A stretch of DNA of 64,000 bases. It comes from Alphaproteobacteria bacterium (GTDB lineage Bacteria; Pseudomonadota; Alphaproteobacteria; Rs-D84). The stretch's first letter is position 1, and each line of letters starts with the position of its first letter. Under the pieces are notes generated by a model. That model saw only the letters and a list, made by a program, of their open reading frames with translations. It did no database searches and had not been told where the DNA came from. A program made the position numbers and the translations under genes. This document shows positions 36,089-52,874 of this stretch, piece by piece. The stretch lies in assembly GCA_017472065.1 (NCBI GenBank), contig JAFURB010000004.1, positions 17,034 through 81,033 on the forward strand, read 5' to 3'.

Positions 36089-36529
36089 ATGATTGATGCA
36101 AAAGGTATCGAGGCCATAATTCCACATCGTGGAAACATGCGATTGGTTGATGAAATTCGTGAATATTCAGACACATCGGCGGTTGGTATAAAATATGTTC
36201 GTGATGACGAATTTTGGTGCGCGGGACATTTTCCAGACAAACCAATTATGCCCGGTGTTCTGCAGGTCGAAGCGTTGGCACAAACCGCATGCTTTGTCGC
36301 GTTTAATCGCATGGACCCGAATGAGGCCGCACAAACATTGGGATATTTTACCACAATGGAAAAGATTAAATTTTCACATATGGTACACCCGGGTGACAAA
36401 CTGGAATTACATGTCGAATTGTTAATGAGCAAAATGAAACTGTACAAATTCCACGGCATTGCAATGGTGTCTGGCAAAAAGGTAGCCGAGGCAACATTTA
36501 CAGCCGTTCTGCAACATCGTGATTTGTAA
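36089..36529 (+). CDS. fabZ: 3-hydroxyacyl-ACP dehydratase
   Basis: IPHR and GHFPDKPIMPGVLQVEALAQ. Confidence 0.95.
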   Translation: MIDAKGIEAIIPHRGNMRLVDEIREYSDTSAVGIKYVRDDEFWCAGHFPDKPIMPGVLQVEALAQTACFVAFNRMDPNEAAQTLGYFTTMEKIKFSHMVHPGDKLELHVELLMSKMKLYKFHGIAMVSGKKVAEATFTAVLQHRDL

Positions 36530-36552
36530 AAATCCCGCGAAATGCGGGATTT

Positions 36553-36831
36553 TTAATTGCCAAACAGTTTGATACCAATATTATCAAATTCGGGTGGATA
36601 TCCCAATCGTGCGGCCAATTCAAAGAAATGATACACCGGTATGGCCAGGGTACCTTGTTCGTACGCAGTGATAAATTCTGGGGCCGTGTGCAACATTTGG
36701 GCAATTTGTTCCACAGATAAATTTCGGTCACATCGCACAGATTTTATTACATCCCCCAGATATTCATAAAAATCTTGTGTTCCGTCTGGGATTATAAATT
36801 CCAGTGGTAATTGTTTTACATCTATTGTCAT
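36553..36831 (-). CDS. XRE-family HTH protein
   Basis: LGDVIKSVRCDRNLSVEQIAQML...ITAYEQG; RBS GGGGGGA. Confidence 0.8.
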   Translation of the reverse strand: MTIDVKQLPLEFIIPDGTQDFYEYLGDVIKSVRCDRNLSVEQIAQMLHTAPEFITAYEQGTLAIPVYHFFELAARLGYPPEFDNIGIKLFGN

Positions 36832-36847
36832 TTGTCCCCCCGTTGTC

Positions 36848-37036
36848 AAAAAAAATACCACCTAATAAAATTAAGTGGTTGGAGAGTAACAAACTATAGT
36901 AAGCATAGTCGGTGTATTCAATATATTTCACACGTCTCCAACCATTTGTTGTTGGAGATTTTTACGTTCCAAATATATTGGAACAACTTACTATGGGTTC
37001 GTTACCACCCATACTGACAAAATCATCAGTACAATG
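36848..37036 (-). ncRNA. c4-like antisense RNA/attenuator leader, copy 1
   Basis: Promoter TTGTAT-N16-TATAAT (37039-37066); a series of hairpins; antisense segments GTAACGA and ATAGTAAG complementary to downstream CTTACTAT-AGT-TTGTTAC; terminator ACCAC..GTGGT followed by a T run. Confidence 0.7.
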
Positions 37037-37090
37037 GGATTATATACCATATTTATGAAAATACAAATAGGATTTTTTGCTTATATAAAT

Positions 37091-37125
37091 AATAGAATCC
37101 ACAATTGCACTCTGAACTTTGAAAA
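37091..37125 (-). repeat. Solo end of the heptamer element
   Basis: Reverse complement TTTTCAAAGTTCAGAGTGCAATTGTGGATTCTATT matches 56959-57007 apart from two missing heptamer units. Confidence 0.8.
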
Positions 37126-37149
37126 CAATCCCGCGAAATGCGGGATTTT

Positions 37150-37743
37150 TTACAAACATGCAAATGCGGCGGCGTTATTCTTTAACACAAACCAGCCCAT
37201 ACGATAATCTGTTGCATATACGGTTACCAAGAACATCGCAATTATCCCAATTACCAATATAACATTTGATCGTTTGCCACGCATCGCATACAGCGAAATG
37301 TTATAAAACAAAAACAGTATATACGCATCAACCAACATACTGATGACCCATAATGACACGCAATTAAATGCCAGCGCATTTACCCCCAATATCACAGGAT
37401 ACATGAAAAATACAGATGCCAATGCCTTAATCGCGATTTCCCAGTCGCGTTCACCACCGGTTATTTCAGATACCAACATCAACAGTCCGCCCATAACAAA
37501 CAGTATTCCAACCGCCATTACCGGGGTTATAATTAACGCATTGAACAATGCACCAACCGTGAACGATGCACCGGTTAGCATATTAATACCAAATACCAAC
37601 ACGCCCCCCAGCAATCCCCACAGGAACGCTTTGAACATGGCTTCTTCCATATTTCCATCGGCAACAATTTTTGTAAAATAACGGCGCGGATTTATAACAA
37701 TATCACGTACATGTTTTATGGCGCGCTTTAATTTCTTTATCAT
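37150..37743 (-). CDS. Yip1-domain membrane protein
   Basis: IVINPRRYF followed by about five TM helices. Confidence 0.7.
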   Translation of the reverse strand: MIKKLKRAIKHVRDIVINPRRYFTKIVADGNMEEAMFKAFLWGLLGGVLVFGINMLTGASFTVGALFNALIITPVMAVGILFVMGGLLMLVSEITGGERDWEIAIKALASVFFMYPVILGVNALAFNCVSLWVISMLVDAYILFLFYNISLYAMRGKRSNVILVIGIIAMFLVTVYATDYRMGWFVLKNNAAAFACL

Positions 37744-49657: not shown

Positions 49658-50008
49658 ATGCGAAAGACAATTAAAAATCATAGCGATTTTGCCGTTACAC
49701 CCGATGATTTATCGGGTATGTCGTCGTACTTTATCGTACGGGCAAAATATGCAAAATTTCCAAATGACGCGCGTTATGGATTAATTGTAACAAAACGAAC
49801 ATTCAAACATGCCGTGGACCGCAATCGGGCAAAGCGATTATTGCGCGACTGGATTCGTTTCCACAATGATATGATGTTGCCTAATATGGACTATATCTTT
49901 GTAGCACGTGCGCCAATTTTACGGGCAACGCGTGACGATGGACGCACCGCCATGCGTAAGGCGTTGCACTGGATAAAAAAAACATATAAAAATGAATCCG
50001 AAAAATAA
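49658..50008 (+). CDS. rnpA: Ribonuclease P protein component
   Basis: RYGLIVTKR...AVDRNRAKRLLR. Confidence 0.92.
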   Translation: MRKTIKNHSDFAVTPDDLSGMSSYFIVRAKYAKFPNDARYGLIVTKRTFKHAVDRNRAKRLLRDWIRFHNDMMLPNMDYIFVARAPILRATRDDGRTAMRKALHWIKKTYKNESEK

Positions 50009-50234
50009 TCCATGTATTACAAAGCGGCTGGCGATGGCCATGGTACGCATGTATCAGGTATGCATTTCCCCATTTACAGGCGGCCGTGCGGCGTGTCGAT
50101 TTACCCCAACATGCAGTGAATATACGCGCCAGGCAATTGAAAAATACGGCACAATCCGTGGTACATACATGGGGTTTAAGCGAATTCTACGATGTCGGCC
50201 CGGCGGTGGTTTCGGATATGACCCGGTGCCGTGA
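49992..50234 (+). CDS. yidD: Membrane protein insertion efficiency factor
   Basis: YQVCISP, CRFTPTCSEY, RILRC and GYDPVP. Confidence 0.93.
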   Translation: MNPKNNPCITKRLAMAMVRMYQVCISPFTGGRAACRFTPTCSEYTRQAIEKYGTIRGTYMGFKRILRCRPGGGFGYDPVP

Positions 50235-50745: not shown

Positions 50746-52095
50746 ATGTCACAAATTAAAAAAGTTTTAATTGCCAATCGTGGTGAAATTGCCCTGCGTA
50801 TTATTCGCGCGTGTCGCGATATGGGTATTCGTACGGTTGCGGTTTATTCAACCGCAGACAGGGACGCAATGCATGTACAATTGGCCGATGAATCTGTGTG
50901 TATTGGACCAGCGGCGGTTCGTGATTCATATCTGAACGAATCTGCGATTTTGACGGCGGCGTTATTGACCAACGCAGATGCAATTCATCCAGGATATGGA
51001 TTTTTATCTGAACGCGCAGACTTTGCACGCAAGGTTGAACAGCATAAAATGATTTGGATTGGCCCGTCACCTGATATGATTGAAAAAATGGGGGACAAGG
51101 TTAATGCAAAGCGTACTGCAATTGAATGTGGTTTGCCGGTGGTGCCGGGTTCTGATGGCGCGATTACAAGTCTGGAACACGCAATTGAATGTGCACAGAA
51201 AATTGGATATCCCGTTATGTTAAAGGCCGCCGCAGGTGGCGGTGGACGCGGTATGCGCGCAATCATGTCACAAGACGACATGGCAGAAGCATATCAATTA
51301 ACCAAGAACGAGGCACAATCTGCATTTGGCGATGATACACTGTATATGGAAAAACTGTTAACGCATCCGCGCCATATTGAATTTCAGGTCTTGGGCGATA
51401 CACATGGCAATGTTGTGATATTTGGTGAACGCGACTGTTCATTACAGCGCCGCAATCAGAAAGTTATGGAAGAGTGTCCTGCGGCAATATTAACCCAGAA
51501 ACAGCGCGACGATATGATAGAGGTGTGTAAGTCCGCCGCCAAGAAAATGGGATATACAAATGCCGGTACATTTGAATTTATGTTCGAAGATGGTAAATTC
51601 TATTTTCTTGAAATGAATACCAGATTACAGGTTGAACATCCAGTTACAGAAATGGTGTATGGGGTTGACCTGGTGCGTGAACAAATCCGTATTGCAGCCG
51701 GCGAAAAATTAGGATACAACCAATCAAATGTTATTCCAAACGGACACGCAATCGAATTTCGTATCAATGCCGAAGATCCAGATACATTTATCCCAAATCC
51801 GGGTAAAATTACATTGTATGCACCGGCGGGTGGCATGGGTGTTCGCGTGGACAGTGCGGTCTATACCGGATACACAATCCCGGCGACATATGATTCTATG
51901 ATTGCCAAACTAATTGTGCATGCGCCAAATCGTCCAGCATGTATTATGCGTGCGGCACGCGCATTGGATGAATTTGTTATCGAAGGGGTTAAAACAACAA
52001 TCCCGTTGCAACAAAAGTTATTGGCCAACAAAGATGTTAAACAGTTAAACTTTGATAACAAATGGCTGGAAGCATTTTTGAAAAAAGACGAATAA
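50746..52095 (+). CDS. accC: Biotin carboxylase
   Basis: [25 protein letters not shown] and [14 protein letters not shown]. Confidence 0.96.
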
Positions 52096-52123
52096 TAAAA
52101 TGCCGGTATTTACCGGTGTTTTT

Positions 52124-52318
52124 TTAATTTTTTGGCATTGAATCAAATGGGTATTCCATCGCAATAACCAGCGATATTTTTTGGTATATATTTAGTGGCC
52201 CACCATGCGCGATTATATGTTTATATTTGGATTCAGTTACACACAAAATATTACACATATCAATAATCGTATATCCGCGCAGTTTTCGCATATATTCTAT
52301 TTCCTGGCCAAATGTCAT
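52124..52318 (-). CDS. Small XRE-like HTH protein
   Basis: FGQEIEYMRKLRGYTIIDMCNIL; RBS AAGGGG. Confidence 0.72.
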   Translation of the reverse strand: MTFGQEIEYMRKLRGYTIIDMCNILCVTESKYKHIIAHGGPLNIYQKISLVIAMEYPFDSMPKN

Positions 52319-52342
52319 GATTATTCCCCTTTTTTGTGCAAG

Positions 52343-52553
52343 TAAAAACCACCACTTTTACAGGGGTGGTCGGGTGTGCTCAAAATCATACAACAAATGA
52401 TCTCGCTGCTTTTGGTAAAACCTATTTTATAACAGCGAACACCCGACCAGGGTCAGGTAAACGATGCGAAAAACATTCGCAACATATTACGACGCAATTC
52501 GCATCGTGTTGTATGGGTCTTGAGCGACCCGAACCCACATCCCTGTGGATTCT
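52343..52553 (-). ncRNA. c4-like antisense RNA/attenuator leader, copy 2
   Basis: -10 TATACT (52559-52564); hairpin GGGTC-GCTCAA-GACCC then ATACAAC, complementary to downstream GTTGTATG-ATT-TTGAGC; TGGTCGGGTGT/ACACCCGACCA helix; terminator ACCACC..GGTGGT-TTTT. Confidence 0.72.
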
Positions 52554-52670
52554 ATGTTAGTATAAACTAATAAAACACCAAAATCCAACACAAAATCAAT
52601 ATCACTGCGTGGCAATAAATATTTATTATTTGCAATTGGCAAAATGTCTGTTATAATCAGTGGGCTTTGC

Positions 52671-52746
52671 GGGTGGTTAGCTCAGTTGGTGAGCCGCGTT
52701 ACCTTGACATCGTAAAGGTCGTCGGTTTCACGGACATAACACCCCC
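52671..52746 (+). pseudogene. Degenerate tandem copy of tRNA-Val(GAC)
   Basis: First 20 nt identical to the tRNA at 52760; anticodon loop TTGACAT kept; D, anticodon and T stems damaged; no CCA. Confidence 0.8.
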
Positions 52747-52759
52747 GAAGAACAGTTTT

Positions 52760-52836
52760 GGGTGGTTAGCTCAGTTGGTTAGAGCGTTACGTTGACATCG
52801 TAAAGGTCGTTGGTTCGAGTCCAATACCACCCACCA
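52760..52836 (+). tRNA. tRNA-Val(GAC)
   Basis: GGGTGGT...ACCACCC-ACCA; anticodon loop TTGACAT; TTCGA in the T loop. Confidence 0.95.
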
Positions 52837-52844
52837 GATTTTAT

Positions 52845-52874
52845 AAAAAAACACCGGCATTTGCCGGCGTTTTT
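52845..52874. terminator. Bidirectional terminator (ACACCGGCA family)
   Basis: AAAAAAACACCGGCATTTGCCGGCGTTTTT. Confidence 0.75.

What the first reader, a model, noticed from the sequence alone, without database searches (positions are those of the whole stretch)
52124..52564. Second c4-like module: different sequence, same pairing architecture, different specificity code
Seen on the minus strand: TATACT; hairpin GAATCCACA..TGTGGGTTC; hairpin GGGTC-GCTCAA-GACCC then ATACAAC; third stem ACGATGCGAA..TTCGCATCGT; ACCTGACC pairing with GGTCGGGT; helix TGGTCGGGTGT/ACACCCGACCA enclosing GTTGTATG-ATT-TTGAGC, the exact complement of CATACAAC and GCTCAA; overlapping terminator ACCACC..GGTGGT-TTTT; then an RBS and a 64-aa XRE-like gene. 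Every element maps one to one onto the module at 36.8-37.0 kb, with compensatory changes in the helices and both antisense:target pairs. Inference: a dispersed family of orthogonal RNA-gated HTH cassettes (heteroimmune, like P1 versus P7), either domesticated or minimal selfish elements. I know of no description of this arrangement, but could not search.
Basis: partly seen in the sequence, partly recalled or inferred. Interest (0 to 1): 0.85.

Follow-up and report, generated by a model that had tools for sequence, protein, structure and literature searches.

The report
Self-addressed c4-type RNA leader family
This stretch is one of about 26 copies in a tiny gut-bacterial genome of a phage-type (P1 c4 / P4 CI) antisense-RNA leader, each copy carrying its own private pairing code in front of a small regulator or envelope gene, so it is a striking expansion of a known kind of RNA switch rather than a new kind.

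Summary
Every listed element is present on the minus strand of 52124-52564. The genome (834 kb, 80% complete) holds 26 such modules, not two. In each of the 26, the upstream hairpin loop (X) plus tail (Y) pairs best with that copy's own Y'/X' (own -17.9 against cross -5.5 kcal/mol).

The layout is not undescribed. It is the a1b1-target plus c4-antisense plan of phages P1 and P4 (Rfam clan CL00128). By that plan the upstream hairpins are the target and the enclosed three-way junction is the antisense RNA. The junction scores 41.4 bits on Rfam sRNA-Xcc1, below its cut-off of 53. Rfam's C4 and c4-a1b1 models do not match.

The differences from the phage systems:
- a 9-10 bp closing helix;
- a conserved competing anti-stem;
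- an intrinsic terminator that overlaps the 3' arm;
- no second (a2b2/seqC) target;
- non-phage downstream genes (8 HTH, 14 envelope or secreted, 4 other or none);
- matches in 145 of 151 genomes sampled from the order.

Most likely function: a self-specific RNA switch that sets termination against read-through. The direction of the effect is unresolved. Verdict: new variant of a known kind; interest 0.62.

The parts
52559..52588 (-). Putative promoter: -35 TTGGAT (52588-52583), 18-nt spacer, -10 TATACT (52564-52559)
   Evidence: Read. Not called by the consensus scan. In the six aligned HTH-type paralogues the matching GCGGTATAAT block is invariant. Inferred.
52531..52552 (-). Hairpin 1 (GAAUCCACA-GGGA-UGUGGGUUC)
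   Evidence: The type-B paralogues keep it with compensatory changes (CACA/TGTG, CAAT/ATTG, TAACA/TGTTG; read).
52515..52530 (-). Hairpin 2 (GGGUC-GCUCAA-GACCC), which presents target site X in its loop. It is the counterpart of hairpin 2 of c4-a1b1 and P4 seqA.
   Evidence: The same geometry is seen in P4 and in 19 of 20 true sRNA-Xcc1 loci by eye.
52518..52525 (-). Target site X (GCUCAAGA), complementary to X'
   Evidence: RNAduplex.
52507..52515 (-). Target site Y (CAUACAACA), the single-stranded tail 3' of hairpin 2, complementary to Y'
   Evidence: RNAduplex.
52461..52507 (-). Stem 3 (ACGAUGCGAA...UUCGCAUCGU). It sits where P4, IsrK and the type-C paralogues have a first terminator, but here it lacks a U run.
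52451..52458 (-). Anti-stem (ACCUGACC), which competes with the 3' arm for the 5' arm of the closing helix
   Evidence: The anti-stem:5'-arm helix is 89.3% paired on 16 copies, and 3 of its pairs change on both sides.
52368..52448 (-). c4-type three-way junction, the presumed antisense RNA. The closing helix is 52448-52439 with 52377-52368.
   Evidence: Rfam sRNA-Xcc1 41.4 bits, E 9e-6, cut-off 53. R1 79 bits. The closing helix is 99.3% paired with 4 covarying pairs. The leader-less RNA folds into it.
52404..52437 (-). Hairpin I of the junction
   Evidence: all 5 pairs change on both sides.
52384..52402 (-). Hairpin II of the junction. Its loop and 3' arm carry seed Y' (UGUUGUAUG, 52395-52387).
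52378..52385 (-). Seed X' (UUUUGAGC) in the junction strand next to the 3' arm
   Evidence: P4 CI RNA has its second seed in the same place.
52365..52367 (-). ACC tail after the closing helix. With the GGU start it resembles the RNase P determinants of c4.
   Evidence: GGT start in 18 of 26 own copies and RCC tail in 13 of 26. Processing itself was not tested.
52344..52370 (-). Intrinsic terminator (ACCACC-11 nt-GGUGGU-UUUUU), overlapping the 3' arm by 3 nt
   Evidence: The extended terminator is 92% paired on 16 copies. Not called by the scan.
52124..52330 (-). RBS (AGGGG, 52330-52326) and a 64-aa ORF, a probable divergent XRE-type HTH
52097..52122 (.). Two-way terminator hairpin shared with the converging accC gene
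36839..37047 (-). Sister module (type A). X is GGUAACGAAC (37006-36997) and Y is AUAGUAAGU (36994-36986). The R1 match is 36839-36969 and the terminator is 36879-36857.
36553..36831 (-). 92-aa XRE-type HTH gene behind the sister module
   Evidence: Pfam HTH_3, 27.4 bits against a cut-off of 23.

Best explanation
The module is a lineage-specific relative of the phage c4/a1b1 system (P1/P7 immI; P4 CI RNA with seqA; Rfam sRNA-Xcc1).

One transcript starts near 52552. It first carries a target site: loop X of hairpin 2 plus the tail Y. It then carries a c4-type three-way junction whose hairpin-II loop (Y') and junction strand (X') are complementary to that site. An intrinsic terminator, an RBS and a small HTH gene follow.

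The 5' arm of the junction can pair with an upstream anti-stem or with the 3' arm. The end of the 3' arm can pair with the 5' arm or with the terminator. The RNA therefore switches between two forms:
- a closed form: X:X' and Y:Y' paired, anti-stem hairpin formed, full terminator, transcription stops;
- a c4-like form: closing helix formed, terminator weakened, read-through into the gene.

Occupancy of X/Y by the cognate Y'/X' chooses between the two. The Y'/X' can come from the same transcript or from a processed copy acting in trans. The processed copy is probably cut by RNase P at the GGU start.

Each of the roughly 26 co-resident leaders has a private X/Y code, so each senses only its own RNA.

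Shown here: the anatomy, the covariation, the copy-specific pairing and the two conserved competing helices. Inferred: transcription, processing, action in trans, and the direction of the effect.
For: 1. Same plan as P4 on real sequence. P4 runs PLE, hairpin 1, hairpin 2 with GUGAGAA in its loop, tail UUCACAGG, then a C4-family junction (74.9 bits) with CCUGUGAA in the hairpin-II loop and UUCUCAC in the junction. P1 has c4-a1b1 and then C4.
2. Rfam sRNA-Xcc1 matches the junction at 41.4 bits, E 9e-6. By eye, 19 of 20 true sRNA-Xcc1 loci from other Pseudomonadota show the same upstream loop-plus-tail complement.
3. There are 26 copies. Ten of them were found only by the model and still obey the rule by eye.
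4. The own partner is best for 26 of 26 copies, -17.9 against -5.5 kcal/mol. In genome G069 it is best for 19 of 22.
5. Both competing helices are conserved. The closing helix is 99.3% paired. The anti-stem is 89.3% paired and the extended terminator 92%.
6. Three near-identical leaders differ mainly in the code columns: 12 of 34 code columns vary against 24 of 189 others, p = 0.0038. Orthologous leaders in other species carry different, compensated codes.
7. Folding of the window copy. The full leader takes the closed form (P(terminator) 0.99). With X and Y blocked, P(closing helix) rises from 0.00 to 0.64 and P(terminator) falls to 0.44. The leader-less RNA folds into the junction.
8. All 25 loci with a homologue of the 64-aa gene have the leader directly upstream.
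9. RNase P RNA and RnpA are present. The junction starts with GGT in 18 of 26 copies and is followed by RCC in 13 of 26.
10. A contig from an RNA library covers 52279-52462 with no differences and bridges the terminator. This is weak: it is a contig, and DNA carry-over is not excluded.
Against: - Rfam's C4 and c4-a1b1 models give no match at E <= 10 on either window module. Model R1 does not hit P4 or P1. sRNA-Xcc1 stays below its cut-off, and the 36.8-kb module has no Rfam match. Kinship rests on architecture, not on sequence score.
- There is no second target (a2b2/seqC) at the RBS or elsewhere. For 25 of 26 copies no exact X-gap-Y site lies outside the copy's own module. The P1 mode of blocking translation therefore cannot apply.
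- The direction of control is open. In P4 pairing gives termination. In the fold model of this copy, a trans RNA bound to X/Y would favour read-through.
- That shift was seen only for the window copy. In the type A and type C copies tested (3 of 3) the anti-stem hairpin stayed dominant, at 0.67-0.99.
- RNAfold cannot model the pseudoknot of cis pairing together with the closing helix, so P(closing) = 0 in the free state is partly an artefact.
- The promoter and the leader terminator were not called by the consensus scan.
- In relatives 9 of 52 copies and in G069 4 of 22 copies by eye lack a canonical two-block duplex within 150 nt. Three of the nine are later units of tandem arrays.
- There is no direct evidence of transcript ends, processing or action in trans.
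Confidence: 0.65

Rival explanations
1. Purely cis-acting attenuator. X:X' and Y:Y' are only long-range helices of one structured leader that sets termination before the gene. No free RNA acts in trans, and the 'codes' are ordinary drifting helices.
For: - The minimum-energy fold of the whole leader is the intramolecular form, z = -8.7.
- The terminator lies 20-45 nt before the start codon, with no room for a separate promoter.
- No second target exists in the genome.
Against: - The homologous P4 and P1 RNAs act in trans (PMC4825925 and PMC5320573, passages read).
- Variation is concentrated in the X/Y columns while the other helices stay nearly fixed among paralogues. This fits selection against cross-talk, which a cis-only helix does not need.
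- Tandem arrays of 2-5 units occur without genes between them (L109, L058, L051, L065). One copy has no downstream gene (C5:15646). Both point to the RNA itself as a product.
Confidence: 0.2
2. Stand-alone trans-acting sRNA genes whose real targets are imperfect sites in other mRNAs. The upstream complement is only a folding or processing aid, or a built-in decoy. The terminator is simply the sRNA's own, and the downstream gene is unrelated.
For: - sRNA-Xcc1 was isolated as a discrete 88-nt sRNA (PMC2996969, passages read).
- Tandem arrays and the orphan copy.
Against: - The leader was found in front of all 25 loci with homologues of the 64-aa gene, across species.
- The RBS follows the terminator closely in most copies.
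- For 25 of 26 copies no exact second site lies outside the module. Imperfect targets were not assessed against a proper background.
Confidence: 0.1
3. A DNA-level repeat. The palindromes would be recombination or transposition sites of a miniature mobile element rather than RNA structure.
For: - Copies lie within 400 nt of three contig starts (C5:274, C11:260, C13:287).
- The leader was swapped between close relatives at the same locus.
- A 524-nt indel variant removes the whole cassette.
Against: - Pairs include G-U in one orientation only, and all 26 copies are oriented with a promoter upstream and a U-run terminator downstream.
- I noticed no terminal inverted repeats or target-site duplications in the sequences read. 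No dedicated search was run.
- The loop-to-tail complementarity has no DNA-level rationale.
Confidence: 0.04

Closest known systems
Phage-plasmid P4 immunity: CI RNA (seqB) with seqA and seqC
   Same: - The order is the same: promoter, hairpin 1, hairpin 2 with site 1 in its loop, site 2 in the tail, then a three-way-junction RNA with the complements in the hairpin-II loop and the junction strand.
- The antisense RNA is made from the leader of the operon it controls, and the outcome is premature termination (PMC4825925, passages read).
- The type-C paralogues here even keep a terminator after Y, as in P4.
   Different: - The closing helix is 9-10 bp against about 16.
- There is an anti-stem next to the 5' arm.
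- A U-run terminator overlaps the 3' arm.
- There is no seqC copy at the RBS.
- There is no phage context.
- There are about 26 copies per genome.
- Rfam C4 does not score it.
P1/P7 immI: c4 antisense RNA with a1b1 and a2b2 (Rfam RF01695 and RF03163, clan CL00128)
   Same: - Two-site pairing, an upstream a1b1 element in the same transcript, and specificity set by a few bases.
- GGW start and ACC-type tail, as at the RNase P site of c4 (PMC5320573, section 16 read).
- That P1 and P7 are heteroimmune through these bases is recalled and is also stated in PMC5320573.
   Different: - In P1 the working target a2b2 covers the RBS of icd. Nothing like it exists here.
- The downstream genes are not icd or ant.
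- Neither covariance model matches.
sRNA-Xcc1 family (Rfam RF02221)
   Same: - It is the best Rfam match: 41.4 bits here, up to 47 in this genome and 51.1 in relatives.
- Same three-way junction and ACC tail.
- By eye, 19 of 20 true members carry the same kind of upstream cognate hairpin.
- It is known upstream of genes (symE in Xanthomonas integron cassettes, preprint 10.1101/2025.06.18.660453; an ORF6N gene in APSE phage, preprint 10.1101/2020.03.17.996009) and in tandem arrays in Xylella (PMC12189769). Passages were read in all three.
   Different: - The score is below the cut-off of 53, and the 36.8-kb module has no match at all.
- True members have a terminator and 45-100 nt between the target and the junction. 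The window copy has stem 3 and an adjacent anti-stem instead.
Group 1 C4-like sRNAs of Acinetobacter baumannii AB5075
   Same: Many copies (21) of a c4-type RNA in one bacterial genome, outside an obvious phage role, with a variable specificity loop, an upstream conserved stem-loop ('Region 1') and apparent processing at GGW (PMC5320573, section 16 read).
   Different: - Those RNAs match Rfam C4.
- The section read reports no copy-specific complementarity between Region 1 and the loops.
- No gating terminator and gene arrangement is described there. Their supplementary figures could not be seen.
IsrK / STnc1160 of the Salmonella Gifsy-1 prophage
   Same: An upstream hairpin RNA (a structural homologue of P4 SeqA) is followed in the same read-through transcript by a processed RNA that shares complementary sequence with it. 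The authors propose that this RNA modulates termination (PMC4825925, passages read). Rfam isrK overlaps the a1b1 element on P4.
   Different: IsrK has its own terminator and acts as an activator of translation on the long transcript. The isrK model gives no meaningful match here (12 bits against a cut-off of 50, on the opposite strand of the 36.8-kb region).

Membership tests
C4 antisense RNA (Rfam RF01695, clan CL00128) | Covariance-model score at or above the gathering score (45 bits) | tested here: not met
   No C4 match at E <= 10 on 52050-52850 or 36500-37200. Positive controls: P4 74.9 bits and P1 68.8 bits.
C4 antisense RNA (Rfam RF01695, clan CL00128) | Closing helix plus two hairpins, with one seed in the hairpin-II loop and one in the junction strand | tested here: met
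   Structure counts on 16 copies, fold of the leader-less RNA, and comparison with the P4 sequence.
C4 antisense RNA (Rfam RF01695, clan CL00128) | Complementary a1/b1 target upstream in the same transcript | tested here: met
   RNAduplex -23.0 kcal/mol for this copy. The own partner is best for 26 of 26 copies.
C4 antisense RNA (Rfam RF01695, clan CL00128) | Second target (a2/b2 or seqC) over the RBS of the controlled gene | tested here: not met
   No exact X-gap-Y site outside the own module for 25 of 26 copies. The one exception has only 12 specified bases.
C4 antisense RNA (Rfam RF01695, clan CL00128) | 5' end made by RNase P at GGW, with an RCC(A)-like tail | tested here: inconclusive
   GGT start in 18 of 26 copies and RCC tail in 13 of 26. 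This copy has GGU and ACC. RNase P RNA and RnpA are present. Cleavage cannot be tested with these tools.
C4 antisense RNA (Rfam RF01695, clan CL00128) | Acts in trans on its target | not testable with these tools
   Indirect only: variation concentrated in the code columns, tandem arrays and an orphan copy.
C4 antisense RNA (Rfam RF01695, clan CL00128) | Prophage or plasmid immunity context | tested here: not met
   The neighbours are accC, tRNA-Val and a BamB-like gene here. Elsewhere they look like ssb, rho and other core genes, named by eye from the ORF list.
c4-a1b1 (Rfam RF03163) | Covariance-model score at or above 46.7 bits | tested here: not met
   No match at E <= 10. Controls: P1 51.0 bits and P4 44.1 bits.
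c4-a1b1 (Rfam RF03163) | Two hairpins, with the second loop and the following tail complementary to the c4 seeds | tested here: met
sRNA-Xcc1 (Rfam RF02221) | Covariance-model score at or above 53 bits | tested here: not met
   41.4 bits, E 9e-6. No match for the 36.8-kb module. The best in this genome is 47 bits. In 31 genomes (G000 plus 30 relatives) none is over the cut-off.
sRNA-Xcc1 (Rfam RF02221) | Full-length match to the three-way junction (model positions 1-87) | tested here: met
   Alignment.
P4-type immunity leader | A terminator directly after the upstream target (the IsrK/SeqA element) | tested here: not met
   In the window copy stem 3 is followed by UUUA only. The type-C paralogues do have a hairpin plus U run.
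XRE-type HTH (Pfam HTH_3 and relatives), for the 64-aa ORF | Profile match | tested here: inconclusive
   Pfam gives no family at E <= 1. hhalign against five paralogous HTH proteins gives 70% probability, E 4e-5, over 36 columns. The 92-aa protein of the sister module does pass HTH_3.

The most novel reading that the evidence does not exclude
An order-wide natural library of mutually orthogonal, self-addressed c4-type RNA switches.

- There are 20-30 per roughly 0.9-Mb genome of gut Alphaproteobacteria near Candidatus Enterousia.
- Each gates one envelope or secreted-protein gene, or one small XRE regulator.
- The two-part codes (X, Y) are kept apart by selection, recombine independently (the five-unit array in L109), and move between loci as whole leaders.

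If the processed RNA relieves its own leader's termination, as the fold model of this copy suggests, each unit would be a positive-feedback, all-or-none switch. The cell would then have phase-variation-like, independently switchable surface genes without any DNA rearrangement.
Probability: 0.3. Interest if true: 0.85.

Novelty: new variant of a known kind. Interest (0 to 1): 0.62.

Why it matters
- It shows that the phage immunity device of P1 and P4 has been taken over on a large scale as a general gene-by-gene leader. It occurs about once per 32 kb in a reduced genome and was found in 145 of 151 sampled genomes of the order.
- Dozens of co-resident copies keep apart through a short two-part code. 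This is a natural test of how many orthogonal RNA-RNA pairs one scaffold can support, and a ready source of parts for synthetic biology.
- It links three Rfam entries that are filed separately or only partly together (C4, c4-a1b1, sRNA-Xcc1). True sRNA-Xcc1 RNAs also carry an upstream cognate target. This bears on how sRNA-Xcc1 is read in Xanthomonas and Xylella, where target prediction has looked elsewhere.
- It gives a testable handle on regulation in an uncultured gut lineage that has few other recognisable regulators.

Tried and rejected
- Rfam at gathering thresholds found only the two tRNAs in the window.
- Shuffling the seed against 150 nt of upstream sequence gave weak z-scores (median about -2 in relatives). 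AT-rich seeds find many alternative partners. I relied instead on own-versus-cross comparison at homologous positions. In that test the segments were defined from each copy's own best duplex, which favours the diagonal.
- RNAduplex on long upstream regions was too noisy to rank partners.
- The search for a second target found none. Imperfect targets were not judged against a background.
- Model R1 found nothing in P4 or P1.
- The consensus scan called neither the promoter nor the leader terminator of this copy.
- Read laying used contigs only, so transcript starts, ends and strand cannot be read. Stretches without cover in the RNA runs (for example 52480-52640 in X19) are not evidence. The 524-nt joint in X20 was laid at 90% likeness and may come from a related organism.
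- Automatic detection of the helix arms failed for many copies. I used model-based alignments instead.
- Scripts 27 and 81 stopped on an index error after printing part of their output. One search repeated the count for all 26 copies.
- Signal peptides and 'canonical duplex' counts (43 of 52; 19 of 20; 18 of 22; 10 of 10) were judged by eye, with no dedicated tool.
- Chen et al. 2011 on sRNA-Xcc1 is not held.
Additional file 1 of PMC2864571 describes c4 and c4-a1b1, and the supplementary figures of PMC5320573 may bear on whether copy-specific upstream complementarity was already noted. I could see neither.
- Literature searches made: 'sRNA-Xcc1', 'c4-a1b1', 'c4 antisense RNA', and 'CI RNA / phage P4 / seqA / seqB'. 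None of the listings or passages seen describes this lineage's family. That is no proof that it is unpublished.
- Structure prediction, complex prediction, the protein atlas and the representative-protein search were not used.
Full report
WHAT IS THERE

In order:
- a TATACT box (52564-52559);
- hairpin 1 (52552-52531);
- hairpin 2, GGGUC-GCUCAA-GACCC (52530-52515), followed by AUACAAC;
- a long stem 3 (52507-52461);
- ACCUGACC (52458-52451);
- the helix GGUCGGGUGU/ACACCCGACC (52448-52439 with 52377-52368), enclosing UGUUGUAUG and UUUUGAGC;
- a terminator that overlaps the 3' arm (52370-52344);
- an RBS and a 64-aa ORF (52318-52124).

The two enclosed blocks pair with GCUCAAGA and CAUACAACA at -23.0 kcal/mol. 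The whole leader folds at -92.5 kcal/mol, z = -8.7, and none of 200 shuffles does as well.

IT IS ONE OF MANY

Rfam at curated thresholds sees only two tRNAs in the window. At permissive thresholds the enclosed helix (52360-52448) matches sRNA-Xcc1 (RF02221) over its full length at 41.4 bits, E 9e-6, with a cut-off of 53. The 36.8-kb module matches nothing.

The same Rfam model found four more places in the window's genome, which is 834 kb in 17 contigs and 80% complete. A regular expression for the closing helix found 16 correctly oriented copies. I aligned these (A1) and built covariance model R1. R1 finds 26 copies in the genome, ten of them new. In the window it finds exactly two, at 52330-52470 and 36839-36969.

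On A1 the three-way-junction structure is 91.2% paired. Fourteen of its 21 pairs change on both sides, no shuffle of 500 reaches that, and sliding the partners drops pairing to 33-57%.

There are three variants of the closing helix: GGUUGGAGG, GGUCGGGG and GUCAGGAGG.

EVERY COPY HAS ITS OWN CODE

In all 16 first copies the loop of hairpin 2 (X) and the tail after it (Y) are complementary to a block in the hairpin-II loop (Y') and to the junction strand next to the 3' arm (X'). The ten copies found only by the model obey the same rule by eye.

I compared each copy's seed with every copy's target segment. The own partner is best in both row and column for 26 of 26. The own mean is -17.9, the cross mean -5.5 (sd 2.6), and the smallest margin is 1.8 kcal/mol. 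The segments were defined from each copy's own duplex, which favours the diagonal.

Further support:
- In an independent single-contig genome of the genus (G069, 22 copies) the figure is 19 of 22, -17.2 against -5.4.
- In 52 copies from other genomes I counted 43 canonical two-block duplexes by eye. Three of the nine misses are later units of tandem arrays that share the first unit's target.
- Three nearly identical leaders (C7:9797, C13:287, C11:260) differ mainly in the code columns: 12 of 34 vary, against 24 of 189 elsewhere, Fisher p = 0.0038.

WHAT IT IS LIKE

I fetched P4 and P1 and ran Rfam on them.

In P4 the CI RNA is a C4-family member (74.9 bits). Upstream of it lie c4-a1b1 (44.1 bits) and an overlapping isrK match. 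Reading the P4 sequence gives this order:
- the promoter PLE;
- hairpin 1;
- hairpin 2 with GUGAGAA in its loop;
- a tail UUCACAGG;
- a terminator;
- about 110 nt of spacer;
- a three-way junction with CCUGUGAA in the hairpin-II loop and UUCUCAC in the junction before the 3' arm;
- GCCA;
- a second GUGAGAA...UUCACAGG over the next RBS.

P1 has c4-a1b1 (51.0 bits) followed by C4 (68.8 bits).

The plan of the window module is therefore the a1b1/seqA target followed by the c4/CI antisense RNA.

The same holds for sRNA-Xcc1 proper. Twenty-four of 151 genomes sampled across the phylum have matches over the cut-off. In 19 of 20 loci fetched I see, by eye, an upstream G-rich hairpin whose loop and tail match the hairpin-II loop and junction, usually followed by a terminator.

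In print:
- The IsrK paper states that P4 CI RNA, processed from the leader, pairs with seqA upstream and seqC downstream and causes termination. It also states that SeqA RNA is a structural homologue of IsrK (PMC4825925, passages).
- A. baumannii AB5075 has 21 C4-like sRNAs with a variable specificity loop, processed at GGW (PMC5320573, section 16).
- sRNA-Xcc1 lies upstream of symE in Xanthomonas cassettes (preprint 10.1101/2025.06.18.660453, passages) and of an ORF6N gene in APSE phage (preprint 10.1101/2020.03.17.996009, passages). It occurs in tandem arrays in Xylella, next to C4 and isrK matches (PMC12189769, passages).

So the arrangement is known in kind.

WHERE IT DIFFERS

1. Sequence models do not connect it to C4. 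There is no C4 or c4-a1b1 match at E <= 10, and R1 does not hit P4 or P1.

2. There is no second target. For 25 of 26 copies no exact X-gap-Y site lies outside the copy's own module.

3. A conserved anti-stem lies just 5' of the junction, and a U-run terminator overlaps the 3' arm. The alternative pairing (anti-stem with 5' arm, extended terminator) is itself conserved, at 89.3% and 92% paired with changes on both sides. The closing helix is 99.3% paired. Two mutually exclusive helices that are both kept is the mark of a switch.

4. The context is not phage. This copy lies between accC and tRNA-Val. Other HTH-type copies are single-gene cassettes between genes that look like core genes, named by eye from the ORF list.

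5. The downstream genes are of these kinds (signal peptides judged by eye):
 - eight small XRE-type HTH proteins;
 - fourteen proteins with signal-peptide-like or membrane N-termini, including a PAP2 phosphatase, an outer-membrane beta-barrel, a Listeria-Bacteroides-repeat protein and several Cys-rich proteins without a family;
 - two small unknown ORFs;
 - two with no convincing ORF.

6. Scale. R1 matches 145 of 151 genomes sampled from the order at E <= 1e-4, and 107 of 107 in the genus.

The nearest named relative is a Candidatus Enterousia MAG with AccC 97% identical (L126). Holders of the stretch are animal gut and faecal metagenomes from 10 studies.

HOW IT PROBABLY WORKS

The terminator lies 20-45 nt before the start codon, so the gene depends on read-through.

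RNAfold puts the full window leader in a closed form. X:X' has probability 0.98 and Y:Y' 0.92. The G-rich 5' arm of hairpin 2 pairs with the start of the 3' arm. The anti-stem hairpin has probability 0.87 and the full terminator 0.99. Without the leader the RNA folds into the c4-like junction and the terminator shrinks to a weak hairpin. With X and Y blocked, the closing helix rises from 0.00 to 0.64 and the terminator falls to 0.44.

Three cautions apply:
- The closing helix together with cis pairing is a pseudoknot that the program cannot score.
- In the three other leaders tested (two type A, one type C) the anti-stem hairpin stayed dominant.
- These are equilibrium folds, not co-transcriptional ones.

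My reading is that pairing between Y'/X' and X/Y decides between the terminated and the read-through form. A processed copy can act in trans on nascent leaders of the same code. It probably starts at the GGU of the closing helix, as for c4. GGT starts 18 of 26 copies and an RCC tail follows 13 of 26. RNase P RNA and RnpA are present.

The P4 precedent predicts repression. The fold model of this copy predicts relief. I leave the direction open.

Points that favour a trans-acting product over a purely cis helix:
- the homologues act in trans;
- variation is concentrated in the code;
- tandem arrays of two to five units occur (L041, L051, L058, L065, L104, L109), and in L109 X and Y are recombined between units;
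- one copy has nothing downstream (C5:15646).

The structural alignment is far better than shuffled controls.

The 64-aa gene has homologues in 22 of 110 sampled genomes of the genus. All 25 loci (24 in relatives plus the window's own) have an R1 match directly upstream. Their codes differ between species with compensating changes. One locus whose Y pairing is broken (L097) also has an in-frame stop in the gene.

EXPRESSION

Only contigs of RNA libraries were available. One contig, with no differences, covers 52279-52462 and bridges the terminator. This is compatible with read-through but does not show transcription or ends.

VERDICT

This is a real and very well supported RNA family. The claim of an undescribed arrangement does not. 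It is a new variant of a known kind, notable for its copy number, its private codes, its built-in terminator switch and its use on host envelope genes.

Noticed in passing
window 52668-52745 (+), next to tRNA-Val 52760-52836 (+): A degenerate second copy of the 5' two-thirds of tRNA-Val(GAC). Neither ARAGORN nor Rfam calls it. It is absent at the same locus in the closest named relative (L126), where the leader is also of another type. A stretch carrying a partial tRNA plus a new leader seems to have recombined in.
   Followed up: partly
L126:2555-3065 compared with window 52090-52770 (alignment A8): A relative with 97% identical AccC has, at the same accC/tRNA-Val locus, a type-A leader with a different code in front of the homologous 64-aa gene. 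The two sequences align again from the 3' arm and terminator onward. Whole leaders are exchanged between loci. Two more distant relatives (L127, L128) have no module within 1.2 kb of accC.
   Followed up: partly
window 52097-52620: A contig of run X20 joins 52096 to 52621 with 12 other letters between. It therefore lacks the whole promoter-leader-HTH cassette. The reads were laid at 90% likeness, so the contig may belong to a related species.
   Followed up: no
L071-L090 (true sRNA-Xcc1 loci of other Pseudomonadota): By eye, 19 of 20 have an upstream hairpin whose loop and tail are complementary to the hairpin-II loop and junction of the sRNA, usually followed by a terminator. The terminator loop often contains CACCCGUCAG, which resembles the 3' arm. 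Rfam 15 lists no clan for RF02221, but it looks like part of the C4 / c4-a1b1 clan.
   Followed up: partly
L109:1694-2778 (-), also L058, L051, L065, L104, L041: Tandem arrays of two to five complete modules about 180-240 nt apart. In L109 the array sits directly upstream of a homologue of the 64-aa gene. Its units combine three X and three Y sequences in different pairings, as if the two halves of the code recombine.
   Followed up: partly
G000 C5:274, C11:260, C13:287 (contig starts); alignment A2 columns 103-160: Three contigs begin within 300 nt upstream of an HTH-type module, and these share about 100 nt of upstream sequence. The repeats probably break the assembly, so 26 copies is a lower bound. 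The promoter spacer of these copies holds an imperfect inverted repeat (CCGYRT-TTTTT-ATGCGG), which could be an operator for the HTH protein.
   Followed up: no
L097 (G130:C26): This is the one homologous locus in which the Y:Y' pairing is broken. Its HTH reading frame also has an in-frame TAA. Leader and gene may be decaying together.
   Followed up: no
G000 C16:24715 and C10:72427; C11:260 and C16:21244: The paralogous secreted proteins (about 300 aa) and the near-identical 80-aa HTH genes (one residue different) sit behind leaders with different codes. The breakpoint between the shared and the different sequence lies at the terminator.
   Followed up: partly
window 49658-50234 (+): rnpA (the RNase P protein) and yidD lie 2 kb from the module. 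The RNase P RNA is at G000 C12:123556-123890.
   Followed up: yes
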